DNA of 64,000 bases from Candidatus Dormiibacterota bacterium (GCA_035635575.1 DASQAV010000131.1:9860-73859), one strand, 5' to 3'; counted from the stretch's first letter, positions 10,119-62,466 are shown. Notes: a model not told the origin generated them from the sequence alone. Numbers and translations are program-made.

Positions 10119-10257
10119 CGTCTCCAGGGCGGCTTGCCCTGCGACCCGTCCCCCTCGCTGCCTCATCAAGATCACCGATCCCGAGGCCGATCAATTCCGA
10201 ATGCGGGCTCGCGGCTCCGCGCGACCCCCCAAGGCCAGGCACGAGGGATCGGGAAGC

Positions 10258-10740
10258 ATGGTGAAGTCGGATCAAATCGTCGCCGATCTCGAGCGGCGCC
10301 GTCGCGAGGGCGCCGCGTTCGAGGATCTGCTCCAGGCCGCGGTGCGCGCGCTCCACGATCTGGACGAGCGGTTCCACTGGACCGGCATCTACGAGCTCTT
10401 TCCCGACAACGTCCTCCGCCTCGGTCCCTTCATCGGCGCTCCCACCGATCACGTGTTCATCGGCGTCGGGCGGGGCGTCTGCGGAACCGCGGTCGCCGAG
10501 CGTCGCAACATCAACGTGCCCGACGTCCGGCTGGTCACCAACTACCTGGCCTGCAGCACCGAGACCCGCTCGGAGCTCGTGATCCTGATCCGGAGGGGCG
10601 AGCGGATCTTCGCGCAGATCGACATCGACAGCCATCAGGTCGCCGCGTTCGACGAGAGCACCGTGGCGAGCGTGCAGGTGGTCGCGGACTGGCTCGCCGG
10701 GCTCTACGAGTCGCGCGAGCGGCCCGGGCGGGATTCCTGA
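10258..10740 (+). CDS. GAF-domain protein, free methionine-(R)-sulfoxide reductase-like (fRMsr/YebR family)
   Basis: A roughly 160-aa single GAF fold with the family-typical Cys-containing motifs (GVGRGVCGTAV…NYLACS…IDIDS). Start chosen at ATG 10258 rather than the upstream in-frame Met at 10201. Confidence 0.55.
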   Translation: MVKSDQIVADLERRRREGAAFEDLLQAAVRALHDLDERFHWTGIYELFPDNVLRLGPFIGAPTDHVFIGVGRGVCGTAVAERRNINVPDVRLVTNYLACSTETRSELVILIRRGERIFAQIDIDSHQVAAFDESTVASVQVVADWLAGLYESRERPGRDS

Positions 10741-10871
10741 CCCCGGAGCGGCACGAGAGCCTCGAGCGTCTCCTCGAGGCCATCCCTCGAATCCTGAAAT
10801 CGGATTCCCTCGACCGTTCCATCATCGAGGCCCTGGAGCTTCTCCGCCGCGGCACGGGGGCGGACGCCCTC

Positions 10872-13800: not shown

Positions 13801-13925
13801 ATCTGGAGTTCAAGAGCGAGGGATTTGCGTTCTTGCAGAAGCCCTACACGATGGAAGATTTCGCGCGCAGAATCGCGGACCTGCTCCGCGGCGCCTCGCT
13901 TGGAGATCGCGGCCGCAAGGTCTAG
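10872..13925 (+). CDS. Hybrid sensor histidine kinase (GAF-like N-terminus, about 4 PAS domains, HisKA, HATPase_c, C-terminal REC)
   Basis: H-box [25 protein letters not shown]1 and G2 boxes ([10 protein letters not shown]…DQGCGM…GKGTGLGLS). Receiver domain ([11 protein letters not shown]…[13 protein letters not shown]…LQKPY). Several PAS cores. Start is uncertain: first in-frame GTG after the GAF-gene stop is at 10872, but the frame is open from 10740. Confidence 0.75.
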
Positions 13926-50146: not shown

Positions 50147-50208
50147 GCCTTGACGCAGGGAGTAGGGCGCAGCCTTGCAGGCCGGAACAAAACAAGGGGT
50201 GGGGAACA

Positions 50209-51890
50209 TGACGCAGCGTCCAGATCCGTCTCAACCCAGAGACCCCAGCGCGTCCGAAATGCCCGAGATCGACCCTCTTGAGCGGCTCAGCAGGGGCTTG
50301 ACGCAGTGGGAGCGGGAACTGTTGCAGGAGCCACGGTCGCCCTCGCGGCCGCGTACCGTAACCGACCTCGATCGCATCACGCACGTCCTCCAGGCAGCGC
50401 GATCCGTCACCGGCACCCTCGATATCAATGAGCTCCTGATCCGCGTCGTCGACGCCGTGATCCAGGTGGCCGAAGCCGACCGCGGATTCCTCATGCTCAT
50501 GCACGAGGACGGAAAGCTCCGCTTCGAGGTCGCGCGCAACAAGGACGAGACCACCCTTCCTTCCGACGAATTCCAGATTTCCTGGGGCATCGCCGAGGAA
50601 GCGGCGCACCGCCGGGAAACGGTCTGGGTCGCCGACGCGATGGGCTCCTCGCTCTTCGCGGAGCGGAAGAGCGTTCGCGAGCTCTCCCTCCGCACCGTGG
50701 TCGCGCTCCCGATCCTGAGCAGCGGGCGCGTGCTCGGCGTGCTCTACATCGATTCCCATTCCGTCACGCACGAATTCACTCCGGACACCATCACGCTGCT
50801 CGAGGCATTCGGGGCGCTCTGCGCCGTGGCGCTCGAGAACGCGCGCATGCACGAGGCGCTGCGGGATTCCAAGAGCCGCCTGGAGATCGAGAACCAGAAT
50901 CTGCGGCGCGCCCTCAAAGAGGATTTCCGCTACGGGCTCCTGGTGGGGCGCAGCCCGAAGATGCTCCGGGTGATCGAATTGCTGGAGAAGGTGATCCCGA
51001 CCCAGGTCTCGGTGCTCGTCCAGGGAGAGACCGGCACGGGGAAGGAGCTGATCGCTCGGGCGATCCACATGAACGGTCCGCGCCGCGAAAAGAGCTTCGT
51101 CGCGGTGAACTGCGGCGCCCTTCCCGAGAACCTCCTCGAGAGCGAGCTCTTCGGCTACAAGAAGGGCGCCTTCACGGGCGCCACGGAGGACCGGCCCGGG
51201 CTCTTCGAGGCCGCCGATGCCGGCACGATCTTCCTCGATGAGGTGGGGGAGATGCCCGCGTCTCTGCAAGTGAAGCTCCTCCGCGTCCTGCAAGACGGCC
51301 ACATCCGCCGCGTGGGCGACACGGTCTCGCGCAAGGTGGACGTGCGCCTGGTCGCCGCGACCAACCGCGACCTCAAGGCCGAGGTCGAGGGCGGCCGGTT
51401 CCGGCAGGATCTCTTCTTTCGTATCAACGTCGTGCCGCTCGAGCTGCCGGCGCTCCGCGAACGAGGGGAGGACGTGCTCCTCCTGGCGCAGCACTTCCTC
51501 GATCAATTCGCCAAGCAGCAGCAGCGGAAGCTCCGCGGCCTGACCCCGGAGTCGCGCGAGCTCCTGCTCCGGCATCCCTGGCCGGGGAACGTGCGCGAGC
51601 TGGAAAACGCCATGGCACGCGCCGTGGCGCTGGCCGACGAGGGCGCCTCGCTGGAGCCTTCGCTCTTCGGGCTCGGGGCGCCCGTCACGCGCCGCTGGGA
51701 CGGGCAGCACACGCTGCGGGAGACCCTCGACGCGGTCGAGGCGGATACGATCCGCGAGGCGCTACGGCAGTGCGACCAGAATGTTTCACGCGCGGCACGC
51801 GCGCTGGGCGTGAGCCGGCAGCACCTTCACAATCGGATGAACTCGCACGGCATTCGCCGCTCGCGGGTCATGAACGAGCCGGCCGCATAG
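50209..51890 (+). CDS. Sigma54-dependent transcriptional activator (GAF sensor domain, AAA+ sigma54-interaction domain, Fis-type HTH)
   Basis: Walker [15 protein letters not shown] loop ([10 protein letters not shown]), Walker B/ESELFG, arginine finger region, C-terminal HTH ([19 protein letters not shown]). N-terminal GAF-like domain. Start at ATG 50209 with SD-like aaggggtgggg. Confidence 0.85.
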
Positions 51891-51907
51891 CGGCGAAAGA
51901 AACCCGA

Positions 51908-52930
51908 GTGGCGCCTCACGTCGAGCGCCGGCTCGCTTCGCTCCGCGCGATTCTCATGCAGAGCGACGCCGAGATCCGCGCACAGTACCCCGAATATTTC
52001 CTCACGTACTATACGTATCTCCGCATCCTCCGGAATCCCGCCCGCATCGAGCACGTCTTCCAGAAAGCCCACGACATGTACCGGTACCTGGAAGCGGAGG
52101 GGAAGGACGTCCTGGACCTGGGCGCGGGGTTCGGCATCGAGGCGCTCCTGGTCGCGATCTATGGAGCGCGCCGGGTGGTCGCCACGGAGATCGATCATGA
52201 CATGGTGGAGGTCGGGCGGTACCTCGCCGAGCGGATGGATCCGCCCATGGCCAATTTCGAATCGAAGTACGGGGACGGGATCTCGATGCAGCTCCCCTCC
52301 GGTAGCTTCGACGGGATCATGACCAACTGCGTGATCTCCCACGTGCGCGACCTCGAGGGGTTCCTGGCCGAGACGACCCGGCTCCTCCGGCCGGGGGGAA
52401 TCTTCTTCCTGAGCGACGAGAACAATTCCCTCTACCTGCCCGCGCGTCCGCGGCGGCGCCGGGGATGGCGCAGTATGGAGGCCGAGCCGGATGGCCCCTG
52501 GTTCCAAGTGCGCATGGCGTACATCGGGGAGCACGTTCCCCAGCTCAGCGGAAACGAATTGCTGGAAGCGACGCGGATCACGCGGGGGCTCGTGGGCAAG
52601 GACATCATGGACGCCGTCCGCGACTATCGGGAATCGCGCCGTCTCCCGACCCGGCCCGCCTTCCTCTACCGGCATCCGATCGACGGCCAGTACCCCGAGC
52701 GGGAGCTCAACCCCTACTGGCTCATGCGCAAGTTCCGGGACCAAGGCCTCACTCCGGAGCTTCTTCCCGCGTTCTTTTCCCGGGGGATCGAGAACCATCC
52801 CCGGCAATGGGTGAAGGACGTTCTTCGCCTTCTCTGCACCGCGTGCCCCGCGCTTTCGGTCTACGTCTGGCCCATCATGAGGCTGCGGGGAAGAAAACCC
52901 GTGTTGACACCTTCCGCCGGCGTCTCCTAG
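51908..52930 (+). CDS. Class I SAM-dependent methyltransferase
   Basis: Motif I VLDLGAGFGIEAL. Post-I acidic residue (VATEID). Motif II-like (FDGIMTNCVISHV) and motif III (LRPGGIFFLSDE). GTG start at 51908 chosen because the tracked upstream Met lies inside the activator gene. Confidence 0.6.
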   Translation: MAPHVERRLASLRAILMQSDAEIRAQYPEYFLTYYTYLRILRNPARIEHVFQKAHDMYRYLEAEGKDVLDLGAGFGIEALLVAIYGARRVVATEIDHDMVEVGRYLAERMDPPMANFESKYGDGISMQLPSGSFDGIMTNCVISHVRDLEGFLAETTRLLRPGGIFFLSDENNSLYLPARPRRRRGWRSMEAEPDGPWFQVRMAYIGEHVPQLSGNELLEATRITRGLVGKDIMDAVRDYRESRRLPTRPAFLYRHPIDGQYPERELNPYWLMRKFRDQGLTPELLPAFFSRGIENHPRQWVKDVLRLLCTACPALSVYVWPIMRLRGRKPVLTPSAGVS

Positions 52931-52940
52931 TCTCGCGCCG

Positions 52941-54149
52941 ATGCGAACCGGCCTCCTGAGCCGCGCCCGCGAGCGCCGACCGCAATTCGCAGCGCCGCTC
53001 CTCGCGTCGCTTCTCGTTCTCCTTTCCTCTCCCGCGTTCGCCGCATCCCCCGAGACCTCGCCGCCTCCTGCCGCGGATCTTCCCGCCCCCACGGGCTTCT
53101 CCGCGAAGGATCGCCCCGGGGATTCTGGGAACGCGACCTTGCTGACGTGGAAGGATCCGTCCGGGGTGCCCGAAGGCGCGATGATCCAGATCCGCCGCGC
53201 GGTTCCGCCCGCGTACGACTGGACCGACATCGCGACGGTGAAGCTGGGTGTGGAGCGTTACGAGGACACGACGGCGAAAGACGGCGTTGTCTACCGCTAC
53301 GAGATCGCGGTAACCGTTCCCGCCGCTGGAGTTTCGGGCCCGCCGGTCGTGAGCGACCCCGTTGCCTCGCACGACAACTGGTTCAGCAAGGACCGCACGA
53401 ATTCCTTCATCGCCTCGGTCCTCTTCATCTTCATCCTCCTGATCTCCATCACGATGGCGAAATCGGGGAAGAACATCTTCATCCGGCGCATTGCGGGGTT
53501 GAACGCCATCGACGAGGCGATCGGGCGCGCCACCGAGGTCGGGAAGAAGGTGCTCTACATTCCCGGGATCCAGAGCATGGACGAGATCCAGACCATCGCC
53601 TCGATCTCGATCCTGGGCCACGTGGCGCGCGCGACCGCGCGCTACGGTGCGGACCTGGACGTCGCGAATCGCGACCCGCTCACGTTTGCCTCGGCACGCG
53701 AGGTGGTGCGCTCGGCCTACCTCGAGGAGGGACGACCCGACCTCTTTCGCGAGGAGATGGTGAACTACGTCACGTACGACCAGTTCGCGTTCACCGCCGC
53801 GGTATCCGCGCGGATGATCCGGGAGAAACCGGCGGCGATCTTCCTCATCGGGTACTTCTTCGCCGAATCGCTCATCCTCGCTGAAACGGGGCAATCCACC
53901 GGGGCCATCCAGATCGCCGGCCAGGCGGACCCGACCCAGCTCCCGTTCTTCGTCGCGACCTGCGACTACACGCTCATCGGCGAGGAGCTCTACGCGGCGA
54001 GCGCCTACCTCACGCGCGAGCCGATCCTCCTGGGCTCGATGCGCGCCCAGGATATCGCCAAGGGCATCGTCATCGTGCTCGGGATCGGGGGCATCATCGT
54101 GACGAGCCTGGGCCTGACCTGGTTCCCGGACCTCTTCAAGACCAAATGA
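52941..54149 (+). CDS. Uncharacterised protein: signal peptide, FN3-like domain, TM helix, about 230-aa internal domain, C-terminal TM helix
   Basis: Signal peptide (LLASLLVLLSSPAFAASP). FN3-like segment (PAPTGFS…LLTWKDP…YRYEI). Hydrophobic helices FIASVLFIFILLISITMA and IVIVLGIGGIIVTSLGLTWF. No recognisable catalytic motif. Confidence 0.5.
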   Translation: MRTGLLSRARERRPQFAAPLLASLLVLLSSPAFAASPETSPPPAADLPAPTGFSAKDRPGDSGNATLLTWKDPSGVPEGAMIQIRRAVPPAYDWTDIATVKLGVERYEDTTAKDGVVYRYEIAVTVPAAGVSGPPVVSDPVASHDNWFSKDRTNSFIASVLFIFILLISITMAKSGKNIFIRRIAGLNAIDEAIGRATEVGKKVLYIPGIQSMDEIQTIASISILGHVARATARYGADLDVANRDPLTFASAREVVRSAYLEEGRPDLFREEMVNYVTYDQFAFTAAVSARMIREKPAAIFLIGYFFAESLILAETGQSTGAIQIAGQADPTQLPFFVATCDYTLIGEELYAASAYLTREPILLGSMRAQDIAKGIVIVLGIGGIIVTSLGLTWFPDLFKTK

Positions 54150-54946
54150 ACTTCGAATTCGGACGCGTCGCTCTCGTCGTGCTCTTCGCCCTCCTGCCGA
54201 TCGTGGGGATCGCGCTCGGCTTCTTCGTTCCGGCCCTCCGCGCGCGGGGGCCGCTCTTCGTGGCCTTCTTCGCCGGTATCATCCCGATTCTTTCGCTCTA
54301 CATTCCGAGGCAATTCCTCTCGGGCGAGACGGGGATGAGACCGAGGCTCGACCAGTGGCTCATCATCGTCTACGGGTTCGCGCTCCTGCTCGGGATCGTG
54401 AACGTAATCCAGAATGGATCGCGCAAGATCGCCCGCCGCGAGAAGGGATGGCCCTACTCCGCCGTGCTGATGACAGGCCTGTTCCTCACGGGAGGGCTGG
54501 GCATCTGGGGGGCGGTCTCGGGGCAGGGGATCACGACGCTCCCGGACGGATCGGGAACGCCCTTCAAGTGGATCGCGGATCATTTCTTCCTGCCGCTCCA
54601 GGCCACCATCTTCGCGCTCCTCGCGTTCTTCATGGCCTCGGCCGCATTCCGCGCGTTCCGCGCCAGAAACACCGAGGCCACCATCCTCCTCGCCGCCGGC
54701 ATCGTCGTCATGGCGGGCCGCGTTCCCTTGCTCGAGTTCCTGTCGTCTCCGTTCCCCCCGCTTCAGCCCACCGCGGCGGTCGCGAGTCAGGGGTTGGGGA
54801 AGCTGACCGAGTGGATCATGAGCACCCCCAACGGCGCGGCCCAGTCGGGCATCATCATCGGCGCGGCGCTCGGCGCCGCCTCGATGGCAATCCGAGTCAT
54901 CCTCGGGATCGAGCGTGGGTACCTGGGTCTCGGAGGAGGGGAGTAG
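54146..54946 (+). CDS. Uncharacterised polytopic membrane protein (about 7 TM)
   Basis: ATG overlaps the previous stop (ATGA). 266 aa, almost entirely hydrophobic helices. No recognised motif. Confidence 0.5.
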   Translation: MNFEFGRVALVVLFALLPIVGIALGFFVPALRARGPLFVAFFAGIIPILSLYIPRQFLSGETGMRPRLDQWLIIVYGFALLLGIVNVIQNGSRKIARREKGWPYSAVLMTGLFLTGGLGIWGAVSGQGITTLPDGSGTPFKWIADHFFLPLQATIFALLAFFMASAAFRAFRARNTEATILLAAGIVVMAGRVPLLEFLSSPFPPLQPTAAVASQGLGKLTEWIMSTPNGAAQSGIIIGAALGAASMAIRVILGIERGYLGLGGGE

Positions 54947-54947
54947 C

Positions 54948-55832
54948 GTGGCGCGATTCTTCGACAAGTTGCTGAATCTGGACCGGCGCTGGCTCTTCCT
55001 TCTCGTGTTCCTAGGCGTTGCTGTTCCCATCATCCTGCCGATCGGCCTGCCCGTGACCACGACCGGCCCAACCCGCTCCGCCTTCGAATATATCGAGGCC
55101 TTGAAGCCCGGCGACTACGTCATCATCTCTTTCGATTACGGTCCCTCCTCCGCTCCTGAGAACGACCCGATGGCCGAGGGGATCATGCGGCAGTGCTTCC
55201 TCAAGAAAATCCGCGTGGTGGTCATCGTGCTCTACCAGCTTGGGGGACTCCAGCTCGCGAGCAATTCCGTCGCCAAGGTCTCGGCGGAATTCCCCAATCT
55301 CAAATATGGCGTGGACTATGTGAACCTGGGCTACAAGGACGGGGCCGCGGCGGTCATGAAGCGGATGGGGGACGACATCGCGGGCGCCTTTCCGACCGAC
55401 GTGCGCGGCACACCGCTCTCCCAGATTCCCATCATGAAGGGGCTGAGAAGCCTCCGTCAGGTAAGCGTGGTCGTCACCGTCGCCACCGGGCTCATCGGCG
55501 AGTACTGGATCACGCAGGCCCACCAGCAGAGCGGCGTGCCGGTAATCGTCGGTCCGACCGCCGTGGGCGCGCCGAAGTACTACGCCTACCTGAACGCGGG
55601 GCAGCTGGTGGGGATGCTCGGTGGGATGAAGGGGGCCGCGGAATACGAGAAGCTTCTCGCCGCGCGCTACCCGGAGCTGGGGCGCTTCTACAAGACGACC
55701 CGCGCGTTCACCGCCACGAAGGGGATGGACGCCCAGACCGTCATCCACTTCGTCATCATCCTGTTCATCCTGATCGGGAACATCGCATTCATGAGCCGCC
55801 GCGCAGCGCAGAAGAAGGCGGCTGCGCGATGA
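54948..55832 (+). CDS. Uncharacterised bitopic protein (N-terminal TM, about 210-aa extracytoplasmic domain, C-terminal TM + basic tail)
   Basis: GTG at 54948 immediately after the previous stop. TM helix WLFLLVFLGVAVPIILPIGL and C-terminal VIHFVIILFILIGNIAFM. The tracked Met (54915) would overlap the upstream gene. Confidence 0.45.
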   Translation: MARFFDKLLNLDRRWLFLLVFLGVAVPIILPIGLPVTTTGPTRSAFEYIEALKPGDYVIISFDYGPSSAPENDPMAEGIMRQCFLKKIRVVVIVLYQLGGLQLASNSVAKVSAEFPNLKYGVDYVNLGYKDGAAAVMKRMGDDIAGAFPTDVRGTPLSQIPIMKGLRSLRQVSVVVTVATGLIGEYWITQAHQQSGVPVIVGPTAVGAPKYYAYLNAGQLVGMLGGMKGAAEYEKLLAARYPELGRFYKTTRAFTATKGMDAQTVIHFVIILFILIGNIAFMSRRAAQKKAAAR

Positions 55833-56470
55833 CGCCCATGCCCGATATCGGGACCTGGGTCGCGGCGCTCCTCACGCTCTTTGCGTTCTCGTTCCTCTAC
55901 AAGGACAACCCTCTATTCCGATTCACCGAGAGCCTGTTCGCCGGGGTCTCGCTGGGGTACTACGTGGGGACGACGCTGAACCAGACGCTGGTTCCGAACC
56001 TCATCAAGCCCCTGACCCACGACTTCAACCAGAACTGGGATCTCCTGGTGCCGGGACTTCTGGGCCTGCTGCTCTACATGCGTTACGTGCCCAAGACCGG
56101 ATGGGTTGCCCGCTACGCGCTCGGGATCTACGTCGCCTACTACATCGGTCTCGATTTCACGAGGCGCATCCACGGCGAGGTGCTGCCGCAGCTGGGGCGG
56201 GCCATCGTTCCGCTCTCGCACCTGGACGGGCACACGATCTTCTATTCCCTGATCTTCGCGATCGGCGTATTCAGCGTGCTGATCTATTTCTTCTTCTCCA
56301 AGGAGCAGGACCAGGTCACGCGGCGCATCGCGCGCGTGGGCATCTGGTTCCTCATGGTCTCCTTTGGAGCGGCCTTCGGATTCACGGTCATGGGGCGCGT
56401 CGCGCTCCTCATCGGCCGCCTCAATTTCCTGATCCTGGATTGGATTTACCCCCTGATCGGAATCCGGTAA
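55829..56470 (+). CDS. Uncharacterised polytopic membrane protein (about 5-6 TM)
   Basis: ATG overlaps the previous stop (ATGA). 213 aa. The tracked ORF from 55193 is an out-of-gene 5' extension. Confidence 0.5.
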   Translation: MTPMPDIGTWVAALLTLFAFSFLYKDNPLFRFTESLFAGVSLGYYVGTTLNQTLVPNLIKPLTHDFNQNWDLLVPGLLGLLLYMRYVPKTGWVARYALGIYVAYYIGLDFTRRIHGEVLPQLGRAIVPLSHLDGHTIFYSLIFAIGVFSVLIYFFFSKEQDQVTRRIARVGIWFLMVSFGAAFGFTVMGRVALLIGRLNFLILDWIYPLIGIR

Positions 56471-56494
56471 CATCCGGGTAACCGGTCCGCGCGT

Positions 56495-57193
56495 TCAGGG
56501 TTTCTTTCCCGCCGCGGCCGATGCCTCGAAGTTGACCATCGGTACCGTGTTCTTGTTCCCGGCGGGATATTCCACGGTCACGATGTCGCGCAGCGCGGCG
56601 ATGCGCTGCGTCAGCCCGGCGACCGTCTCGGTCGCGGCGCGGATCCGGGCCACCTTGTCGCGCGCGTCCGCCGGAAGCCCCGGATGGACGTGGAGCAGCT
56701 GGGCATTTCCCTGGATCACTTGCAGCGGATTGTTGATCTCGTGGTTCAGCGCCACCGCCATCGCCGACACCGCCTTCATCCGCTCGATCCGAAGACGCTC
56801 CTCGCTGGCCTGGTGCAGCGCGATCGCGTTCCGCACCTTCAACGGAATCTGAAAGCGAATGTCACACTCCGACAGGGGCTTCGTGAAGTAGTCGATCGCT
56901 CCCAGCTCCAGACTCCGCTGGATGTCGTCCTGCGCCGTGGACGCGCTGGCCACGATGAAGGGGATTCTCGCGAGCGTCTCGCTCTTGCGCATCGTGAGGA
57001 TGACGTCGAAGCCGTTCGGGTGGGGCATCATCAGATCCAGAAGCAGGAGATCGACCCGCTGGGTCTCCATGATCTGGAGCGCCTGCTCGCCGCTCTCCGC
57101 CTCCAGGAAGTTGTAATCCCCCTGGCGCAGCACCATGCGCAGGAGCTTCCGGCTATGGGCCTCGTCGTCAACGACCAGTAGGTGGAACGGCAT
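56495..57193 (-). CDS. Response-regulator receiver domain fused to a HisKA (DHp) domain, lacking an ATPase domain
   Basis: REC motifs (LLVVDDE…DLLLLDLMMP…, K in FTKPL). C-terminal H-box HEINNPLQVIQGNAQLL, with no N/G1/G2 boxes following. 232 aa. Confidence 0.7.
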   Translation of the reverse strand: MPFHLLVVDDEAHSRKLLRMVLRQGDYNFLEAESGEQALQIMETQRVDLLLLDLMMPHPNGFDVILTMRKSETLARIPFIVASASTAQDDIQRSLELGAIDYFTKPLSECDIRFQIPLKVRNAIALHQASEERLRIERMKAVSAMAVALNHEINNPLQVIQGNAQLLHVHPGLPADARDKVARIRAATETVAGLTQRIAALRDIVTVEYPAGNKNTVPMVNFEASAAAGKKP

Positions 57194-57596
57194 GGCTCCT
57201 CTTCGAGATCAGCGTTTCGATCCGTGCGAGCAGATCGTCCGCACTCACGATGGGTTTCGAGACGTAGTCGTCCGCGCCACTCTCTTTCAGGAACTTCTCC
57301 CGGGACCCCTTCATCGCGTGCGCGGTCGCGAGCAGCACCGGCACGTGGCGGGTGGCGGGATCGCTCTTCAGCCTTCGCGTGATCTGGAGCCCGTCGACCG
57401 GCTTGCCGTCCAGGTGGCTGTTCGAGAGCGACACGTCCATGATGACCAGATCCACGCTCCCGGCCTTGATCTCCTGGATGACCCGCAGGGGGTCCTCCGT
57501 GATCTCGATCACGTAATTGCCCTTCCGCGTCAGGATCAGCTGGAAGAGCTTGGCGTTCATCGGGTCGTCTTCGACGATCATGATTCGTTGAGGCAT
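57168..57596 (-). CDS. Single-domain response regulator (CheY-like)
   Basis: IMIVEDDPMN, phospho-acceptor region DLVIMDVSL, T/S and K (SKPI) positions. 142 aa. Overlaps the start of the downstream REC-HisKA gene. Confidence 0.8.
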   Translation of the reverse strand: MPQRIMIVEDDPMNAKLFQLILTRKGNYVIEITEDPLRVIQEIKAGSVDLVIMDVSLSNSHLDGKPVDGLQITRRLKSDPATRHVPVLLATAHAMKGSREKFLKESGADDYVSKPIVSADDLLARIETLISKRSHAVPPTGR

Positions 57597-59896
57597 TCGT
57601 CCCTCGCTGTGCCCGACTCCGCCCGGGGTGGTGCCGCCGGGAACGTCAGGCTGACCCGCGTTCCCTTGCCCGCTCCCTCGCTGACCATCGCGATCTTTCC
57701 GCCCATCCGCTGGACCAGAGACTTCGTGATCACCAGGCCGAGCCCGGCACCCTGGTGGCGCCGCTTGTAGGATCCATCGACCTGCGAGAACTTCACGAAG
57801 AGGCGCGCCTGATCCTCCCTGGCGACCCCGATGCCGGTGTCTTCGATGACAATCCGGATCTCGTCGGGGAACTCGTGCCTGGACGCTCGCACCCTCACCC
57901 CTCCCTTATCGGTGAACTTGACCGCGTTCCCAAGCAGGTTCAGGAGCACCTGGCGGAGGCGTGCCGGATCAAGCTGCATCTCCAGGGGGTACGAGGGCGT
58001 ATCGGCGGTGAGCCCGATCCCCTTGCGGGCCGCCGCGGGGCGCAGCGTGTCCACCGCCGCCAGGAGGGTCGGCGCCGCATCTCCCGCTTCCAGGGCCATT
58101 TCCAGCTTGCCCGCCTCCACTTTCGCGAGATCCAGGATGTCGTTGATCACCACGAGGAGGTGCTCGGCGCTTTCCCGGATGGAACGGGCGAAGGTCCGGC
58201 CCTCCTTCTCCGATTGGGCGACGCCCTGCTCGAGAAGGGTGGCAAAGCCGATCACGGCGTTGAGGGGAGTGCGGAGCTCGTGGCTCGTGTTGGCCAGGAA
58301 CTCGTTCTTCATGCGACTCCCTTCGGCCAGCTTCTCGTTCGCCGTCTGCAGCTGCTCATTGATCAGCTCCAGCTGCTCGGTTCGGTTCTGGATCACCTCT
58401 TCGCGCTCGCGCCGATCGCTGATGTCGCGGCCGACGATCACCCAGGCGTCCTCGCTCCCCTCGCGGTTCATCGCCTTGGAGACGGTGGCCTCGGCGGGGA
58501 ATTGCCCGCCGCCCACCATGCAGCACGCCAGCTCGCCCTGGAATCCGCCTTGGTCGCCGAGAACCCGGAGCAGGGAGGCGCGGTCGGCGCGATCCAGGGG
58601 AACGAACATGCTCTCGATCTCGCGGCCGCGGAGCTCTTCGTCGGGAGTGTTCCCCAGCGCGCGGCGCGCGGCGGGGTTGGCGTACGTGACCTTGCCCTCG
58701 AGATCGAACCCGACCAGCATCTCGTCGGTGCCGCGCATGTAGGAGGCGAGGAGCTGATCGCGCGATTCGAGCTGGATCCGCTTCAGTCCCTGCGTGAGCT
58801 GGCCCGCGAGCCAGCGGATCAAGGTCACGTCATTGGGAGCGAACTCCCGGGACTCTCCGGCGAAGCACTGCAGCACTCCCGTCGGATTTCCCCGCTCGAG
58901 CAAGGGCACGGAGCACACGCTGGGGCTCGACTGCTCGGGGTCCATCTCCCGGGGCTCGAGCGCGGAGATGCCGCGCATCGCGACGATCGCCAGCGGCCCC
59001 TTCTCGCCGGCGCGGCGGTAGAGCGCCCACTCCTGAAACCCGGTCGCCTCCGCCATCGTGTCCAGCGCGGTCCGGATCAGGTCCCCTTCGCTTCCCGCCC
59101 GCATCATGACCTCGGCCAGCCGGTGGATGCTGAGACGGGCGTGAATGTTCCGGTTCCGTTCCTGCTCGAGATGGCGCTTTCGGTAGCGGTCGTATCCGGT
59201 GAACCCGATTCCGCCCAGCAGGACCACGCACACCGCGATGGCCTCGGCGCGGAAGCGGCGCTCGGATCGAAGGGCGGCCTCCGCCCCCACGTCGACCACC
59301 AGGACCGCGACCGCCTTGCCCTCCTTGTCCCGGATGGGTGCGTAGCCTCCGAGCCAGCTTCCGTGCCGATCCTCGAAGGGCGCGGGGTCCGCGGTGGGAC
59401 CGGACATGCCGTGCTGGACTTGCGGGCGCGCTACGGCGTTGAAGAGGTCCCCACGATGGATCTGCTCCTTGGGATCCGCCACGGCGTCGAGCGCGAACCG
59501 CCAGTTCCTGGAACGCGGCCCCGGCGTGAGCACGAAGATCCTTCTCACGTCGGGGTTGGCCTGCCGCGCGGCGATCAGCCGGGCGCAGAGCTCGCCATAT
59601 TGCGGGGTGGTCTCGTCCGTCCGCGAGCCGAGCGCCTGAAGCTCATCGGCCGGAATGCCTCCCGCGATCGTCGCCGCGAGGGCGGCCACCCGGACGCGCC
59701 CCTCCTGGTGGAGCCGCTCGCTGAGATACGCGGTCAGCGCGCAGACGAGCGCGACCGTGAGGGTCGCGGTGAGCGCCGTGAGCCACGCGTAATGCGCGCG
59801 AATCTTCCCGATGTTCTGCGGGCTTCCCGGCGTGGACGCGGCAGACTGGGACTCCGGCCGCCCCGGCTTGCTCGAGGCAATATGGCTCTCTGGCAA
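57578..59896 (-). CDS. Membrane sensor histidine kinase (periplasmic sensor domain, GAF, PAS, HisKA, HATPase_c)
   Basis: N-terminal TM. Extracytoplasmic roughly 170-aa domain. Second TM. H-box NTSHELRTPLNAVIGF. N box LLNLLGNAVKFT. G1 EDTGIG. G2 GAGLGLVI. 772 aa. Confidence 0.8.
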   Translation of the reverse strand: MPESHIASSKPGRPESQSAASTPGSPQNIGKIRAHYAWLTALTATLTVALVCALTAYLSERLHQEGRVRVAALAATIAGGIPADELQALGSRTDETTPQYGELCARLIAARQANPDVRRIFVLTPGPRSRNWRFALDAVADPKEQIHRGDLFNAVARPQVQHGMSGPTADPAPFEDRHGSWLGGYAPIRDKEGKAVAVLVVDVGAEAALRSERRFRAEAIAVCVVLLGGIGFTGYDRYRKRHLEQERNRNIHARLSIHRLAEVMMRAGSEGDLIRTALDTMAEATGFQEWALYRRAGEKGPLAIVAMRGISALEPREMDPEQSSPSVCSVPLLERGNPTGVLQCFAGESREFAPNDVTLIRWLAGQLTQGLKRIQLESRDQLLASYMRGTDEMLVGFDLEGKVTYANPAARRALGNTPDEELRGREIESMFVPLDRADRASLLRVLGDQGGFQGELACCMVGGGQFPAEATVSKAMNREGSEDAWVIVGRDISDRREREEVIQNRTEQLELINEQLQTANEKLAEGSRMKNEFLANTSHELRTPLNAVIGFATLLEQGVAQSEKEGRTFARSIRESAEHLLVVINDILDLAKVEAGKLEMALEAGDAAPTLLAAVDTLRPAAARKGIGLTADTPSYPLEMQLDPARLRQVLLNLLGNAVKFTDKGGVRVRASRHEFPDEIRIVIEDTGIGVAREDQARLFVKFSQVDGSYKRRHQGAGLGLVITKSLVQRMGGKIAMVSEGAGKGTRVSLTFPAAPPRAESGTARDECLNES

Positions 59897-59968
59897 CGTA
59901 CCTCCCTTTCCGCGTACCTATCGGACGGTGGTGCAAGGAACTACAGCGAAAAGGAAGGGTTTTAGGCA

Positions 59969-59983
59969 TGGCACCTCTTTGCT
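59969..59983 (+). promoter_or_regulatory. Sigma54-like promoter element (TGGCAC-n-TTGCT) upstream of the lipoprotein gene
   Basis: Read directly: catgGCAC ctct TTGCt. -24 TGGCAC and -12 TTGC are both present, but the GG…GC spacing is 9 nt rather than the canonical 10. It is located 37 nt upstream of the 60020 start. Confidence 0.25.
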
Positions 59984-60019
59984 AGCGTCCATCGCCACAA
60001 GGGATTATCATTCCGGCCC

Positions 60020-61213
60020 GTGCGTCTGAACCCGATCCTAGGTCTCTTGCTGGTGTGCCTGGTCGCAGCACCCCTCCCGGGGTGCTCGCGCAAGGCGGAA
60101 AAGCTGGTGGGAGCCGGCCGCGTGATCCGCGGCCCCGGGGGCCTTGGAACGACGACGCGCGTCCAGCCCACGCCCGACCGCGATACGTACGTGGAGCCCG
60201 GGACGGCGGACTTCGGCGACCTCCTCATCGTCGGGAGCGACACCCTCTTCACCGCGCGCATCTTGATGGCGGTCGCTTCCTGGAGCGTTCCCAGCGACAC
60301 GCTCCCCGGTTTCTCCCTCGGGCAGGTCTGGCTCGAGGTGCCGCCGGACACCACGTTCTTCGAGGGCGGCAACGTGAATCTCCACCTGACGGGGTCCTCG
60401 TGGGACACGACGTCCGTCGCGTGGCCGGGGCCTGCGCTTTCGACCCTGCTCGGATCCGCCGTCGACGATCGCCTCACGCCGGGTGCGTTCGTCCTTCCCC
60501 TGAATCCCGCCGTGTACGACTCGATGAAGCGCTGGGCGCAGGCTCCGGGCACGGTGCCCGGATTCGCGCTGGAGCGGCCGGGACAGGGATTGCTGGCCTA
60601 CAAGAGCAAGGGATCCCGGTTTCGCGTGGAATACACGCACACCGTCTCGGGGAGCCCAAAGACGGACACGCTCAGCACGACCGTCACGCAGAACTTCTAC
60701 CTGCACTCTCCGATCGCGCCCCCGCCGGCGGGAACCGAATCGGCGCTCATCCTCGGCGGGATCTACAAGGCGGGGCTCGCCCTCCACTTCCCGCTCGATT
60801 CGGTGCCCGCGAAGGTATCGATCGACGAAGCCCTGCTCGTGTTGAAGCAGGTCGTGGGACCGCCCTTCAATCTGGCGAGCTCGGACACGCTCGCAGTCGT
60901 CCAGGTCCGGCGGATCGAGTTGCCCTGGGGCGAGAGCGTCACCGAGAAAGCGCTGCTGGGCGTGGACAACGCCACGACCGCGTCGCGACTCTTGCGCTTG
61001 GCCTATACCGCCGCGGACAGCACGATCCGGATCACCATTCCCGGGCCGCTCATCCGCGAATGGGCCTCGACGTCCTCTTCGAACCAGGGGTTCTTCCTCT
61101 CGCTCGTCCACCGCACGGATCCCAGGCGCAAGTTCCTGATCGGCTCCCGCGAGTCCACGGCTCCTGCCCAGCTTCACGTGACCTACACCGATCTCCCGCC
61201 GGGGAGGTTCTGA
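60020..61213 (+). CDS. Uncharacterised lipoprotein
   Basis: Signal peptide with lipobox LPG|C (MRLNPILGLLLVCLVAAPLPGCS). 397 aa, predicted beta-rich, no recognised motif. Confidence 0.55.
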   Translation: MRLNPILGLLLVCLVAAPLPGCSRKAEKLVGAGRVIRGPGGLGTTTRVQPTPDRDTYVEPGTADFGDLLIVGSDTLFTARILMAVASWSVPSDTLPGFSLGQVWLEVPPDTTFFEGGNVNLHLTGSSWDTTSVAWPGPALSTLLGSAVDDRLTPGAFVLPLNPAVYDSMKRWAQAPGTVPGFALERPGQGLLAYKSKGSRFRVEYTHTVSGSPKTDTLSTTVTQNFYLHSPIAPPPAGTESALILGGIYKAGLALHFPLDSVPAKVSIDEALLVLKQVVGPPFNLASSDTLAVVQVRRIELPWGESVTEKALLGVDNATTASRLLRLAYTAADSTIRITIPGPLIREWASTSSSNQGFFLSLVHRTDPRRKFLIGSRESTAPAQLHVTYTDLPPGRF

Positions 61214-62466
61214 TGCGCCGCCCCGCGTCGGCATTCGCATGGAGGTCCGCGCTCGCCGGCCTCTTCGCGCTCGCCGCACTCGCGGCGCCGGCCGGCGCCA
61301 ATTCGATTCTTTCGGTCGGAGGATTTGGCGAGCCCCAGCTCGAGGAGGCCGCCCGGCTCCGCGCGCTCGGAGGAGCCGGCGCCGCGGAGCACGGACCACG
61401 CGACATCTCGCTCGTCAACCCGGCCTCGCTCTCCGACGTGGATCGGATTCTCCTCCAGATCACCGCACTTCCGGCCGCCCGCCGAATCAGCGCGAGCTCC
61501 GGTATCTCCGAGACCGCGTACGAGACCACATTCCCATCCGCTCGCGGCGTGATCGCCCTGCCGGGAGGAATCGTGATCGCCGGGAGCTACGTCGCGGGTA
61601 CCGACGCCGAGTTCCGCGTGGTCCGCTCGGAGAACCAGGGCGTGCCCTCGACGGTCGAGATCAACGGAACGGGCGGCATGAACTTCCTGCGCGCGAGCGT
61701 GGCGCGGCGCATGGCGCCGCCGCTCAGGATCGGCGTGGACTGGGAGGTGATCTCCGGGAGCTACCGCGAGCTCTGGTTCCGCACCTTCTCCGATCCGGGA
61801 CTCACGCCCGCGCGGGACACGCTGGAGACGAGGTATCCCAAGAAGGCTCGCTGGAGATTCGGAGCGCAATTCGTACACGAAGGCTGGACCCTGGGCGGCG
61901 TCTTCGAGACCTCGCAGAATCTCCCGGTCGAGCAGCGGCAGTCCACCGGCGGGGCCTCCGAGACCGCCGTGGTGGGGCGCCTCAAGTATCCGAGCGGGCT
62001 CGCCCTCGGAATCTCCGCGCCGCTCCGGACGCGTCTGCGCGCCGTGGCCCAGTACCGGCGGCAGAACTGGGCCCGCTCCTCCTTTCCGAGCACGCTCGTG
62101 GATTTCCGGGCGCAGCAGCGCTTCTCGTTAGGCATCGAGCGGACGCGCCCGCCGGAGGGAGCGGGCTCGGGGTCGATCTGGAGCCGGATCCCGCTTCGCG
62201 TCGGAGGGTATTTCCTCCAGTGGCCGGATCTCCTGCCCCGGGCGGGAGCGTCCGACATCTCGGGCGGCACCGTGGCGGTCGATGAGCGCGCGCTCACGTT
62301 CGGCGCCGGAATCGTCACGAAGGATCAGGGAGGCGGGCTGGATCTCTCCCTGGAGCTGGGAACGCGGGGGGACAAGGACGCGCTGGGCGTGACCGAGAAG
62401 TTCGCGCGCCTGGGGATTTCATTCCTCGTGAGCGATGAGACGTGGAGGGGGTCGTTCCACCGCTGA
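61213..62466 (+). CDS. Putative outer-membrane beta-barrel protein
   Basis: ATG overlaps the lipoprotein stop (TGATG). Cleavable signal peptide (…ALAALAAPAGA). Alternating hydrophobic/polar pattern with many G/S/T/R-rich turns, consistent with a porin-like barrel. About 417 aa. Confidence 0.45.
   Translation: MRRPASAFAWRSALAGLFALAALAAPAGANSILSVGGFGEPQLEEAARLRALGGAGAAEHGPRDISLVNPASLSDVDRILLQITALPAARRISASSGISETAYETTFPSARGVIALPGGIVIAGSYVAGTDAEFRVVRSENQGVPSTVEINGTGGMNFLRASVARRMAPPLRIGVDWEVISGSYRELWFRTFSDPGLTPARDTLETRYPKKARWRFGAQFVHEGWTLGGVFETSQNLPVEQRQSTGGASETAVVGRLKYPSGLALGISAPLRTRLRAVAQYRRQNWARSSFPSTLVDFRAQQRFSLGIERTRPPEGAGSGSIWSRIPLRVGGYFLQWPDLLPRAGASDISGGTVAVDERALTFGAGIVTKDQGGGLDLSLELGTRGDKDALGVTEKFARLGISFLVSDETWRGSFHR

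What the first reader, a model, noticed from the sequence alone, without database searches (positions are those of the whole stretch)
56495..59896. Phosphorelay-like operon: sensor kinase, stand-alone CheY, and a REC-HisKA protein with no ATPase domain
Three overlapping minus-strand genes. The first is a periplasmic-sensing GAF-PAS histidine kinase. The second is a single-domain receiver. The third is a protein with a receiver fused to a DHp/HisKA H-box (HEINNPLQV) but lacking N/G1/G2 boxes. It can presumably accept phosphate on Asp and carry a phospho-His without autokinase activity, so it would work as a Spo0B/HPt-like phosphotransfer node or as a phosphatase. This is a non-standard two-component architecture, placed between the two candidate envelope gene clusters.
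Basis: seen in the sequence. Interest (0 to 1): 0.5.

Follow-up and report, generated by a model that had tools for sequence, protein, structure and literature searches.

The report
Receiver-controlled histidine-kinase core lacking its ATPase
A conserved three-gene signalling operon in a Candidatus Eisenbacteria genome ends with a real, strongly conserved protein that joins a phospho-receiver to the histidine-bearing helical core of a sensor kinase but has a small beta-hairpin in place of the ATP-binding domain, and this ATPase-less module turns out to be widespread and, as far as I could find, undescribed.

Summary
Three overlapping minus-strand genes encode a membrane sensor kinase (57578-59896), a 142-aa single-domain receiver (57168-57596) and a 232-aa REC-HisKA protein (56495-57193) with no ATP-binding (CA) domain.

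It is not a pseudogene. More than 120 homologue clusters are all 213-283 aa with REC+HisKA only, dN/dS is 0.09-0.34, and the triad is syntenic in all 11 distinct Eisenbacteria-type loci.

The new finding is that its C-terminal half belongs to a broad CA-less module: a HisKA-type DHp (NHE[IV]NNPL..I.GNAQLL) plus a ~25-aa beta-hairpin tail (pLDDT 91). It is fused to REC, 2xREC, HAMP, GAF, PAS or TPR inputs across FCB-group phyla and Acidobacteriota. His is invariant (124/124), as is Asn/Gln at +4; Glu at +1 is kept in 120/124. REC-to-His linker lengths in other phyla are quantised in heptads (42 to 84), so the receiver likely controls the DHp through a coiled-coil signalling helix, as in LvrB.

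Most likely function: a receiver-gated phosphatase or phospho-sink for the co-encoded receiver. A Spo0B-like forward relay is the main rival.

The nearby sigma54 activator has a GAF input and no receiver, so it is not a direct phospho-acceptor. Verdict: new variant of a known kind, moderate interest.

The parts
57578..59896 (-). Sensor histidine kinase, 772 aa, TTG start with GGGAGG 5 nt upstream. Layout: TM1 (aa ~36-60, nt 59717-59791), a ~155-aa extracytoplasmic loop, TM2 (aa ~214-236, nt 59189-59257), a weak GAF-like region, PAS (aa 389-497, nt 58406-58732), HisKA (aa 529-596, nt 58109-58312, H-box SHELRTPL) and HATPase_c (aa 643-755, nt 57632-57970).
   Evidence: ORF. Pfam domains. NCBIfam finds the kinase core most like BarA/TorS/HrmK-type cores, i.e. 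the cores of hybrid kinases. Hydropathy and start-codon context. Orthologues sit in the same position in all Eisenbacteria-type loci.
57168..57596 (-). Single-domain receiver ('REC142'), 142 aa. It has an acidic pocket E9-D10-D11, phospho-acceptor D54 (codon 57435-57437), T91, K114, and a ~10-aa insertion after D54 (SLSNSHLDGKPVDG).
   Evidence: Pfam Response_reg at 76 bits. The best NCBIfam matches are receiver domains of the hybrid kinases HrmK and BarA. It is only 24% identical to the receiver of the next gene. A 142-aa orthologue with the same 26-nt overlap occurs in L001-L013.
56495..57193 (-). REC-DHp-tail protein, 232 aa: a receiver-controlled, CA-less transmitter.
56840..57184 (-). Receiver domain of the REC-DHp-tail protein (aa 4-118). 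It has D9-D10, phospho-acceptor D53 (codon 57035-57037), S83, Y102 and K105, all invariant in 25 aligned homologues.
   Evidence: Pfam at 85 bits. Invariant columns. The AF2 receiver fold has pLDDT 80-94, and its best structural match is RR468 (TM 0.92).
56690..56836 (-). Signalling helix running into DHp helix alpha1 (aa 120-168), predicted as one continuous helix. The H-box ALNHEINNPLQVIQGNAQLL includes H151 (codon 56741-56743), E152 and N155.
   Evidence: AF2 of the module has pLDDT 91. The H-box is invariant in orthologues. Across the wider family His is 124/124, Glu(+1) 120/124 and Asn/Gln(+4) 124/124.
56597..56671 (-). DHp helix alpha2 (aa 175-199).
   Evidence: AF2 model. The family-conserved R-I...V/I-T..L pattern is. 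Foldseek returns only histidine-kinase DHp domains: RetS/GacS, ZraS, CpxA and ERS1.
56510..56587 (-). C-terminal tail (aa 203-228) with the motif VTVEYPAGN...VPMVNF. It is predicted as a beta-hairpin (strands 206-208 and 218-220) plus a short helix, and it replaces the CA domain. Y209, M219 and N221 are near-invariant family-wide. A variable low-complexity end follows.
   Evidence: Conservation. AF2 pLDDT 81-90 over the tail. True kinases match the module HMM only up to position ~86 and then continue into CA, while tail-class proteins match to ~106 and then stop.

Best explanation
**What it is.** The 232-aa protein is a functional, receiver-gated histidine-kinase transmitter core without an ATPase.

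**Shown.**
- It has a competent receiver (D53) joined by a continuous helix to a HisKA-type DHp hairpin (H151-E-I-N-N-P-L).
- The DHp ends in a conserved beta-hairpin tail where a CA domain would normally be.
- It therefore cannot make His~P from ATP.
- It is always co-encoded with, and overlaps the reading frames of, a membrane sensor kinase and a single-domain receiver (REC142).

**Inferred mechanism.**
1. The kinase senses an extracytoplasmic or PAS-detected signal and autophosphorylates.
2. It phosphorylates REC142 (the output or shuttle) and also D53 of the REC-DHp protein.
3. Phosphorylation of D53 changes the packing or register of the coiled-coil signalling helix, as shown structurally for the REC-DHp-CA kinase LvrB. 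This switches the dimeric DHp into a state that docks REC142~P.
4. The DHp then removes the phosphoryl group. It does so either by hydrolysis, using the H-E-x-x-N phosphatase motif, or by back-transfer onto H151 (a phosphate sink).

**Net effect.** A kinase-driven negative feedback or reset on the single-domain receiver. The same logic, an input domain gating a CA-less DHp, would apply to the HAMP-, GAF-, PAS- and TPR-linked members of the wider family.
For: **Real gene under selection.**
- More than 120 homologue clusters are all 213-283 aa with REC+HisKA only.
- D53, K105, H151 and the whole H-box are invariant.
- dN/dS is 0.09-0.34, and the DHp-tail half is more constrained than the receiver half.
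- The triad is conserved in all 11 distinct Eisenbacteria-type loci.

**No CA domain.**

**Family logic.**
- 124 of the 145 scored best 50%-identity representatives are tail-class without CA.
- Their inputs are those of sensor kinases (REC, 2xREC, HAMP, GAF, PAS, TPR). This argues for a regulated activity, not a passive shuttle.

**Catalytic residues.** Asn/Gln at His+4 is kept in 124/124. This is the residue required exclusively for HisKA phosphatase activity according to Willett & Kirby 2012 (PMC3510030).

**Precedent for phosphatase activity in a DHp without CA.** Zhu et al. 2000 (EnvZ) and Kramer & Weiss 1999 (NtrB) are listed in the references seen. Their content is from my own knowledge. 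NtrB shares this H-box type.

**REC-to-DHp coupling.**
- Lys(beta5)-to-His spacing in 18 of 26 non-Eisenbacterial REC-DHp-tail proteins is 42, 49, 56, 63, 70, 77 or 84.
- The closest solved DHp is LvrB, which has the identical HEINNPL motif. In LvrB, receiver phosphorylation drives coiled-coil formation in the linker helix (PMC13269768).

**Circuit precedent.** In RedCDEF, a kinase-like protein that cannot autophosphorylate dephosphorylates a single-domain receiver and receives phosphate from another receiver (PMC2755868). Galperin et al. 2018 proposed phosphatase activity for archaeal 'HisKA, no HATPase' proteins.
Against: - No biochemical data exist for any member of this family.
- His is absolutely conserved and Glu(+1) nearly so. 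Glu(+1) is the residue linked to kinase/phosphoryl-His chemistry and is dispensable for phosphatase activity. This points to a real His~P intermediate and fits a phosphotransfer role at least as well.
- The kinase core and REC142 resemble the parts of hybrid kinases. Hybrid kinases normally feed an HPt, and no HPt gene is in the operon or the window.
- The Eisenbacteria linker (46 residues, 7n+4) falls outside the main 7n class, so the sign of the regulation is unknown.
- The operon has no identified output.
- About half of the family's loci have no neighbouring two-component genes.
- The role of the tail is unexplained.
Confidence: 0.42

Rival explanations
1. **Forward phosphorelay node (Spo0B/ChpT-like).** The kinase phosphorylates REC142, which acts as a split 'hybrid-kinase' receiver. 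REC142~P passes the phosphoryl group to H151 of the CA-less DHp, and H151~P donates it to a terminal receiver. That receiver would be either the protein's own D53 or an unlinked response regulator elsewhere in the genome.
For: - His is 124/124 and Glu(+1) 120/124 in a family that cannot autophosphorylate.
- The kinase core and REC142 best match hybrid-kinase cores and receivers (BarA, TorS, HrmK).
- No HPt gene is nearby.
- Degenerate kinases do serve as phosphotransferases: Spo0B and ChpT, and LovK/PhyK downstream of MrrA (PMC5964349; PMC9981736).
- RedE accepts phosphate on its His from a receiver.
- In the Latescibacterota cluster L052, a REC-DHp-tail gene sits among two kinases, three single receivers and an NtrC-type regulator.
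Against: - Known phosphotransferases (HPt, Spo0B, ChpT) have no input domains. This module is fused to the whole range of sensor inputs, which suggests a gated enzymatic activity.
- The Pfam SPOB_a match is below threshold (15.6 against 28.1) and there is no HPt match.
- REC142 lacks the FATGUY motif seen in several shuttle receivers (checked by eye).
- No terminal regulator is present in the operon or the 64-kb window.
- The neighbouring sigma54 activator has no receiver.
Confidence: 0.3
2. **Kinase modulator acting through the DHp (RetS-like), or a trans-phosphorylated substrate.** The CA-less DHp either pairs with the operon kinase's DHp to block or drain it, or is phosphorylated on H151 in trans by that kinase's CA domain. 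In the second case the kinase would gain a second, receiver-gated transmitter with different partner specificity.
For: - The best Foldseek match of the module is the RetS/GacS DHp co-complex (7n0e).
- The gene is adjacent to a full kinase in Eisenbacteria, Zixibacteria (L081) and Latescibacterota (L037, L052).
- The overlapping reading frames suggest coupled, stoichiometric production.
Against: - The two DHps in the operon are of different H-box subtypes (SHELRTPL against NHEINNPL). The kinase matches the module HMM at only 22 bits, so heterodimerisation is not expected.
- Many family members have no kinase within 6 kb.
- The Foldseek hit reflects the generic DHp fold (E 7e-4, TM 0.48).
Confidence: 0.1
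3. **Non-catalytic dimerising response regulator.** The DHp-tail serves only as a dimerisation or partner-binding output of the receiver, and the tail recruits an unknown target. The H-box would be conserved for structural or binding reasons.
For: - The tail is conserved and predicted to be structured, and it has no counterpart in kinases.
- No output domain exists elsewhere in the operon.
- The gene has a conserved neighbourhood of envelope and membrane genes.
Against: Complete conservation of His and Asn/Gln(+4), and 97% conservation of Glu(+1), over sequences only ~30% identical overall is hard to explain without phosphoryl chemistry.
Confidence: 0.1
4. **Truncated pseudogene or assembly artefact of a REC-HisKA-HATPase kinase.**
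For: The closest solved relative, LvrB, is a REC-DHp-CA kinase.
Against: - The same stop position and length class occur in more than 120 clusters and in 80 species-level loci from many phyla.
- dN/dS is 0.09-0.34.
- The convergent gene lies 24 nt downstream.
- The tail is conserved and predicted to be structured.
Confidence: 0.01

Closest known systems
[quoted passage not shown]
   Same: - An N-terminal phosphorylatable receiver is joined by a helical linker to a HisKA DHp.
- The H-box core HEINNPL is identical, and LvrB is the best PDB sequence match of the module profile (E 2.8e-14).
- The heptad-quantised linker lengths in the family fit LvrB's coiled-coil activation mechanism.
   Different: - LvrB has a CA domain and autophosphorylates. 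In LvrB, receiver phosphorylation works by releasing that CA domain.
- Here there is no CA domain. A ~25-aa beta-hairpin tail follows alpha2, so whatever the receiver regulates cannot be autokinase activity.
'HisKA, no HATPase' non-enzymatic HK-like proteins / P2CS 'possible incomplete histidine kinases' (Galperin et al. 2018, PMC5847659)
   Same: - Input domain(s), then a C-terminal HisKA-like domain with a conserved His, and no ATPase.
- Function unknown; phosphoacceptor or phosphatase roles have been proposed.
   Different: - That description is an architecture class, reported mainly for Archaeoglobi and Methanomicrobia with PAS/GAF inputs.
- The family here is bacterial (FCB-group phyla and Acidobacteriota).
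- It is defined by a specific H-box (NHE[IV]NNPL..I.GNAQLL) and a conserved C-terminal beta-hairpin tail.
- Homology to the archaeal proteins was not tested.
Myxococcus xanthus RedCDEF 'four-component' system (RedE), PMC2755868
   Same: - Operon logic: a sensor kinase, a single-domain receiver, and a kinase-like protein that cannot autophosphorylate.
- That kinase-like protein dephosphorylates the single-domain receiver and can accept phosphate on its His from another receiver.
- Here the extra receiver (RedD-like) and the kinase-like DHp (RedE-like) would be fused in one chain.
   Different: - RedE keeps an HATPase_c domain, and its phosphatase activity needs ADP/ATP.
- RedE has a poorly conserved HisKA domain and no input domain.
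- No sequence relationship was shown.
Spo0B and ChpT histidine phosphotransferases
   Same: Kinase-derived DHp-like helical hairpin dimers that cannot autophosphorylate and that exchange phosphate with receiver domains.
   Different: - Both have a C-terminal pseudo-CA alpha/beta domain and no N-terminal input domain.
- The Pfam SPOB_a match here is sub-threshold (15.6 against 28.1 bits).
Isolated DHp domains of EnvZ and NtrB (domain-dissection experiments)
   Same: A HisKA DHp without its CA domain retains phosphatase activity toward the cognate response regulator. NtrB has the same H-box type (HEIKNPL). The references are listed; their content is from my own knowledge.
   Different: Those are engineered fragments of bifunctional kinases. 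Here the CA-less state is the natural, conserved form and carries an extra tail.

Membership tests
HisKA-family DHp domain (Pfam PF00512) | Profile match above Pfam's gathering score | tested here: met
   30.9 bits against a cutoff of 26.9, E 2.9e-7, aa 148-198. Family members score 30-44 bits.
HisKA-family DHp domain (Pfam PF00512) | H-box H-E/D-x-x-T/N-P with the phospho-acceptor His | tested here: met
   H151-E-I-N-N-P-L is invariant in orthologues. In the tail class His is 124/124, Glu(+1) 120/124 and Asn/Gln(+4) 124/124.
HisKA-family DHp domain (Pfam PF00512) | Two-helix hairpin that dimerises into a four-helix bundle | tested here: inconclusive
   The hairpin is predicted with pLDDT 91, and its structural neighbours are DHp domains. 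Dimerisation could not be modelled with these tools.
Canonical sensor histidine kinase (HisKA + HATPase_c) | C-terminal Bergerat-fold ATP-binding domain with N, G1, F and G2 boxes | tested here: not met
   There is no HATPase_c hit and no hit with a locally built CA HMM. Only 81 residues follow the His. AF2 shows a beta-hairpin plus a short helix. Fold search finds no CA-like match.
Rec-controlled histidine kinases (LvrB type) | N-terminal receiver with a phospho-acceptor Asp | tested here: met
   Response_reg at 85 bits. D9/D10, D53, S83 and K105 are invariant.
Rec-controlled histidine kinases (LvrB type) | Coiled-coil alphaS linker between the receiver and the DHp | tested here: inconclusive
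   The helix is predicted continuous over aa 120-168. The family shows 7n spacing in 18 of 26 non-Eisenbacterial members, but the Eisenbacteria orthologues have 46 residues (7n+4).
Rec-controlled histidine kinases (LvrB type) | CA domain whose release enables autophosphorylation | tested here: not met
   No CA domain.
Spo0B/ChpT-type phosphotransferases | Sequence match to the Spo0B helical domain (PF14689), or a DHp followed by a pseudo-CA domain, with no input domain | tested here: not met
   SPOB_a scores 15.6 bits against a cutoff of 28.1. There is no alpha/beta domain after alpha2. An N-terminal receiver input is present.
HPt domain proteins (PF01627) | Monomeric four-helix-bundle HPt profile match | tested here: not met
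   No HPt family appears among the Pfam hits at E<=1 for any of the three proteins.
'HisKA, no HATPase' HK-like proteins (Galperin 2018 / P2CS incomplete HK) | N-terminal input domain, a C-terminal HisKA with a conserved His, and no recognisable HATPase | tested here: met
   This is an architecture class and not a homology family. Relatedness to the archaeal examples was not tested.
CA-less 'DHp-tail' module (defined here) | H-box NHE[IV]NNPL..I.GNAQLL, alpha2 with R-I..[VI]T..L, and the tail V..EY..G..M[IL][DN][LI] ending the protein within ~63-117 residues of the His | tested here: met
   The window protein matches module HMM positions 3-107 of 112 at 108 bits. True kinases match only positions ~3-86 at 22-55 bits. 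One deviation: the window protein has T190 where 94 of 108 members have Arg.
RedE-like phosphatase of a single-domain receiver | Dephosphorylates the co-encoded single-domain receiver and accepts phosphate on His from another receiver | not testable with these tools
   This needs in vitro phosphotransfer and phosphatase assays. Only the operon composition is analogous.

The most novel reading that the evidence does not exclude
The DHp-tail module would define a previously undescribed, widespread class of two-component protein in the FCB superphylum and Acidobacteriota. These would be sensor- or receiver-gated transmitters that have replaced the ATP-binding domain with a beta-hairpin. They would act as dedicated signal-controlled phosphatases or phosphotransferases on receivers phosphorylated by other kinases. 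That would make them a third regulated component alongside kinases and response regulators. In the window operon it would form a self-contained kinase / receiver / receiver-gated eraser circuit controlling the adjacent envelope-polysaccharide and membrane gene clusters.
Probability: 0.4. Interest if true: 0.7.

Novelty: new variant of a known kind. Interest (0 to 1): 0.55.

Why it matters
- Two-component signalling is usually described as kinases plus regulators, with phosphatase activity as a side function of bifunctional kinases. A large, strongly conserved family that keeps only the DHp, with every phosphoryl-chemistry residue intact and under the control of ordinary sensor inputs, would mean that many FCB-group bacteria use stand-alone, signal-regulated 'transmitter' proteins that are currently annotated as 'response regulator' or 'histidine kinase'.
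- It gives a natural minimal system for separating DHp phosphatase and phosphotransfer chemistry from autokinase chemistry.
- It also lets the coiled-coil register model of input-to-DHp signalling be tested without a CA domain.
- For the uncultured Eisenbacteria, it marks the one conserved signalling operon sitting between two conserved envelope gene clusters.

Tried and rejected
**Hypotheses rejected.**
- Pseudogene or truncation: rejected on conservation, dN/dS and synteny.
- Cryptic ATPase domain: rejected by Pfam, a local CA HMM, two AF2 models and Foldseek.
- Sigma54 activator at ~50.2 kb as the cognate regulator: rejected as a direct phospho-acceptor because it is GAF-AAA+-HTH without a receiver. 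The second sigma54 activator seen in syntenic loci also lacks a receiver.
- A conserved kinase-receiver-REC-DHp triad across phyla: rejected. REC142 and the kinase have no clear orthologues outside Eisenbacteria-type loci. Only the module is shared.

**Tests that were negative or uninformative.**
- FATGUY shuttle-receiver motif in REC142: not present (LLATAHA). This is uninformative because not all shuttle receivers have it.
- Asp-to-His spacing as a heptad test was noisy because of indels inside the receiver. It was replaced by Lys(beta5)-to-His spacing.
- The sigma70 promoter and intrinsic terminator scan of 56300-60300 found nothing.

**Searches with limited return.**
- The profile search of the word-indexed protein database returned only 55 hits, mostly fragments on short contigs, so gene context came from the genome-contig scan instead.
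- Eight literature searches found no description of this CA-less DHp-tail family. The nearest is the archaeal 'HisKA, no HATPase' note.
- The EnvZ and NtrB domain-dissection papers are not held in the library.
- The afdb50 fold library was unavailable.
- Neighbourhood clustering of the HAMP-type members from Fibrobacterota/Chitinivibrionales showed only housekeeping neighbours.

Full report
**1. The observation**

The ORF listing shows three minus-strand ORFs at exactly the reported coordinates: 57578-59896 (772 aa), 57168-57596 (142 aa) and 56495-57193 (232 aa). They overlap by 19 and 26 nt. Each start codon is preceded by a Shine-Dalgarno-like motif.

Pfam assigns these domains:
- First protein: PAS, HisKA (66 bits) and HATPase_c (98 bits).
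- Second protein: Response_reg only.
- Third protein: Response_reg (85 bits) plus HisKA (30.9 bits against a gathering score of 26.9). No HATPase_c.

The kinase's GAF hits are partial and weak: GAF_2 scores 27.5 against a cutoff of 28.6, PF01590 scores 20.2 against 22.4, and each match covers only the C-terminal third of its model. Two hydrophobic segments (aa ~36-60 and ~214-236) flank a ~155-aa loop, which is consistent with extracytoplasmic sensing.

In the third protein only 81 residues follow H151. The convergent + strand gene ends 24 nt beyond its stop codon, so nothing downstream could encode a CA domain. Only the 'GAF' label on the kinase is weak.

**2. It is a real gene and not a truncation**

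- A search of 5.8 billion proteins listed the best 120 of 6,933 hits. These are 70-97% identical, all 213-283 aa, and all annotated REC+HisKA only. Those that carry a name are mostly labelled Candidatus Eisenbacteria.
- In an alignment of 25 of them, D53, S83, K105, H151 and the whole stretch KAVSAMAVALNHEINNPLQVIQGNAQLL are invariant. So is a C-terminal motif (V.T..YPAGN....MV) that precedes a variable low-complexity end.
- Pairwise dN/dS against eight orthologues is 0.09-0.34. The DHp-tail half has lower dN than the receiver half.
- In all 11 distinct Eisenbacteria-type loci examined, the order kinase, 142-aa receiver, REC-HisKA is kept. In loci with independent gene calls the same 26-nt overlap is kept (L001-L013).
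- The flanking genes are also syntenic. On one side is a convergent block of four membrane proteins (DUF6754 plus three without Pfam hits), a methyltransferase, a GAF-sigma54 activator and glycosyltransferases. On the other side are two ~400-aa proteins without Pfam hits, GH15, GT2, GT87 and a receiver-less sigma54 activator.

**3. No cryptic ATPase**

- AF2 on the orthologue alignment gives a good receiver (pLDDT 80-94), followed by helices and a low-confidence tail. Foldseek against the PDB returns only receiver domains, with RR468 best.
- AF2 on the C-terminal module with a diverse alignment gives mean pLDDT 91. It predicts one continuous helix over aa 120-168 with H151 in mid-helix, a loop, helix aa 175-199, a beta-hairpin (aa 206-208 and 218-220) and a short helix.
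- Structural neighbours of this module are kinase DHp domains only: RetS/GacS, ZraS, CpxA and ERS1.

**4. What the C-terminal half really is**

I searched aa 118-232 alone against 1.84 billion cluster representatives. There were 956 hits at E<=1e-3. Only the best 150 are listed, so what the remaining hits look like is unknown.

- The Eisenbacteria orthologues collapse into one 50% cluster plus a few fragments.
- Nearly all the other best hits carry the match at their extreme C-terminus. By a motif scan, 113 of 146 have the H-box 63-117 residues from the end.
- An HMM-based classification without motif pre-selection, which scored 145 of the sequences, gives 124 'tail-class, no CA', 18 with CA and 3 others.
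- The module consensus is ERLAAvGEmAvtvNHEINNPL..I.GNAQLL, loop..RI..VT..L, then ..V..EY..G..MIDL.KS.
- Within the tail class His is 124/124, Glu at +1 is 120/124, and Asn (114) or Gln (10) at +4 is 124/124.
- N-terminal partners confirmed by Pfam are REC, 2xREC, HAMP, GAF, PAS, GAF+PAS and TPR, and never HATPase_c.
- A scan of one genome per GTDB species found at least 406 confirmed matches. The 80 best come from Eisenbacteria, Latescibacterota, Fibrobacterota/Chitinivibrionales, Zixibacteria, Ignavibacteria, Gemmatimonadota, Cloacimonadota, Delongbacteria, Acidobacteriota and others.
- In these loci, essentially all tail-class genes match module HMM positions ~3-106 of 112 and then stop. Genuine kinases in the same loci match only positions ~3-86, at 22-55 bits, and continue into a CA domain.

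So the window protein is the receiver-input member of a broad CA-less 'DHp-tail' family. One deviation: it has Thr190 where 94 of 108 members have Arg.

**5. Relation to known proteins**

- By sequence profile, the closest solved DHp is Leptospira LvrB (E 2.8e-14, identical HEINNPL). FixL chimeras, ThkA, ZraS and KinB follow.
- LvrB is the prototype Rec-controlled kinase (REC-DHp-CA). Phosphorylation of its receiver induces coiled-coil formation in the alphaS linker, which releases the CA domain (PMC13269768).
- To test for the same type of coupling, I measured the distance from the conserved beta5 Lys to the H-box His in REC-DHp-tail proteins. Outside the Eisenbacteria orthologues, 18 of 26 have 42, 49, 56, 63, 70, 77 or 84 residues. 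That is seven different lengths, all multiples of seven. Seven others have 50 and one has 47. The Eisenbacteria class has 46.
- This heptad quantisation is what a continuous coiled-coil signalling helix predicts, so the receiver probably does control the DHp. The Eisenbacteria register (7n+4) differs from the majority, so the sign of that control cannot be inferred.

**6. Gene context and possible partners**

- The 64-kb window holds only one other two-component protein, a hybrid kinase at 10134-13922. It holds no DNA-binding response regulator and no HPt.
- NCBIfam places the kinase core nearest BarA/TorS/HrmK cores, and REC142 nearest the receivers of HrmK and BarA. Together they resemble a split hybrid kinase.
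- REC-DHp-tail genes are also next to kinases in other phyla: Zixibacteria (L081) and Latescibacterota (L037). In L052 the cluster is Rec-HK, REC, REC-DHp-tail, REC, REC, PAS-HK and an NtrC-type regulator.
- Two-component genes are the commonest neighbour family, present in 34 of ~80 loci. Many HAMP-type members have none within 6 kb.
- REC142 and the kinase have no clear orthologues outside the Eisenbacteria-type loci. The triad is therefore lineage-specific, while the module is generic.

**7. Mechanism**

*Shown:*
- The protein cannot autophosphorylate.
- Both receivers are competent.
- The DHp keeps all phosphoryl-chemistry residues.
- A helical, register-sensitive connection joins the receiver to the DHp.

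*From established knowledge:*
- DHp fragments of EnvZ and NtrB retain phosphatase activity without CA. The references are listed; their content is from my own knowledge.
- Kinase-like proteins can act as phosphotransferases (Spo0B, ChpT, LovK/PhyK). They can also act as phosphatases that additionally accept phosphate on His (RedE).

*Inferred.* My preferred reading (0.42) is a receiver-gated phosphatase or phospho-sink for REC142~P, giving kinase-driven feedback. The main argument is that the family is wired to the full range of sensor inputs. That makes sense for a regulated enzyme and not for a passive shuttle.

*Main rival (0.30).* A forward Spo0B-like relay. It is favoured by the absolute conservation of His together with the near-invariant Glu(+1), and by the hybrid-kinase character of the kinase and REC142 with no HPt nearby. 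The two readings are not exclusive, because RedE does both.

*Minor rivals:*
- RetS-like modulation or trans-phosphorylation by the kinase (0.10). This is weakened by the different H-box subtypes.
- A non-catalytic dimerising regulator (0.10).
- A pseudogene (0.01).

The function of the beta-hairpin tail is unexplained.

**8. Novelty**

The architecture class 'HisKA without HATPase' is known. P2CS calls these proteins incomplete kinases, and Galperin et al. 2018 noted such proteins in archaea and suggested they might be phosphatases. In eight literature searches I found no description of this bacterial family, its H-box and tail signature, its phyletic spread, or any experiment on a member. 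Pfam and NCBIfam have no model for the tail.

I rate it a new variant of a known kind. It is of moderate interest to specialists because it is widespread, strongly conserved and directly testable.

Noticed in passing
window 52941-56470 (+): Four consecutive membrane-protein genes lie convergent to the operon: a DUF6754 protein (402 aa, 373 bits) followed by proteins of 266, 305 and ~214 aa with no Pfam hit. Their order is conserved next to the operon in every Eisenbacteria-type locus. Function unknown.
   Followed up: partly
window 50175-51890 (+) and 51770-52930 (+): A GAF-AAA+-HTH sigma54 activator (no receiver domain) is followed by a class I SAM methyltransferase. The pair is syntenic in homologous loci. 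In L002 the two were called as one 893-aa product, which could be a fusion or a calling/assembly difference.
   Followed up: partly
window 60020-62466 (+): Two ~400-aa proteins with signal-peptide-like N-termini and no Pfam hits lie divergent from the kinase gene. They are conserved in synteny. In L001 they are called as a single 831-aa product.
   Followed up: no
window 10134-13922 (+): A large hybrid histidine kinase (1263 aa; DHp, CA, then a C-terminal receiver). It is the only other two-component protein in the 64-kb window.
   Followed up: no
L016, L020, L038, L043, L066 (Ignavibacteria / Zixibacteria), about 5400-9700: A conserved cluster: a DHp-tail protein (~280-298 aa), then a ~570-600-aa protein with a DHp match but no CA detected by my local HMM, followed where the locus extends far enough by three single-domain receivers (L066 ends within the first one and also has a receiver upstream). 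It could be a multi-receiver circuit built around the CA-less module.
   Followed up: no
L030, L032, L040, L041, L056, L069, L074, L077, L082, immediately upstream of the DHp-tail gene: In nine loci from several phyla, a ~276-aa protein whose sequence looks like an HDOD domain (judged by eye, not run through Pfam) sits directly upstream of a DHp-tail gene. This is a recurrent pairing of two signalling modules of unknown function.
   Followed up: no
window 57168-57596 (-), aa 55-68 of the 142-aa receiver: The single-domain receiver has a ~10-residue insertion right after the phospho-acceptor Asp (DVSLSNSHLDGKPVDG), in the beta3-alpha3 loop. It also has His at the T+2 position. The 142-aa length is conserved in orthologues.
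   Followed up: no
L007 (labelled Latescibacterota) and L010 (labelled Acidobacteriota): These two MAG contigs carry the full Eisenbacteria-type triad at 79-88% identity over the module. Their phylum labels probably reflect mis-binning or mislabelling and not a wider distribution of the triad.
   Followed up: no
REC-DHp-tail proteins in the P and L sets: Linker lengths fall into discrete register classes: 7n (18 proteins), 7n+1 (7 proteins) and 7n+4 (the Eisenbacteria orthologues). In engineered sensor kinases, as I recall, different registers invert the signal response, so these classes may correspond to opposite signs of receiver control.
   Followed up: partly
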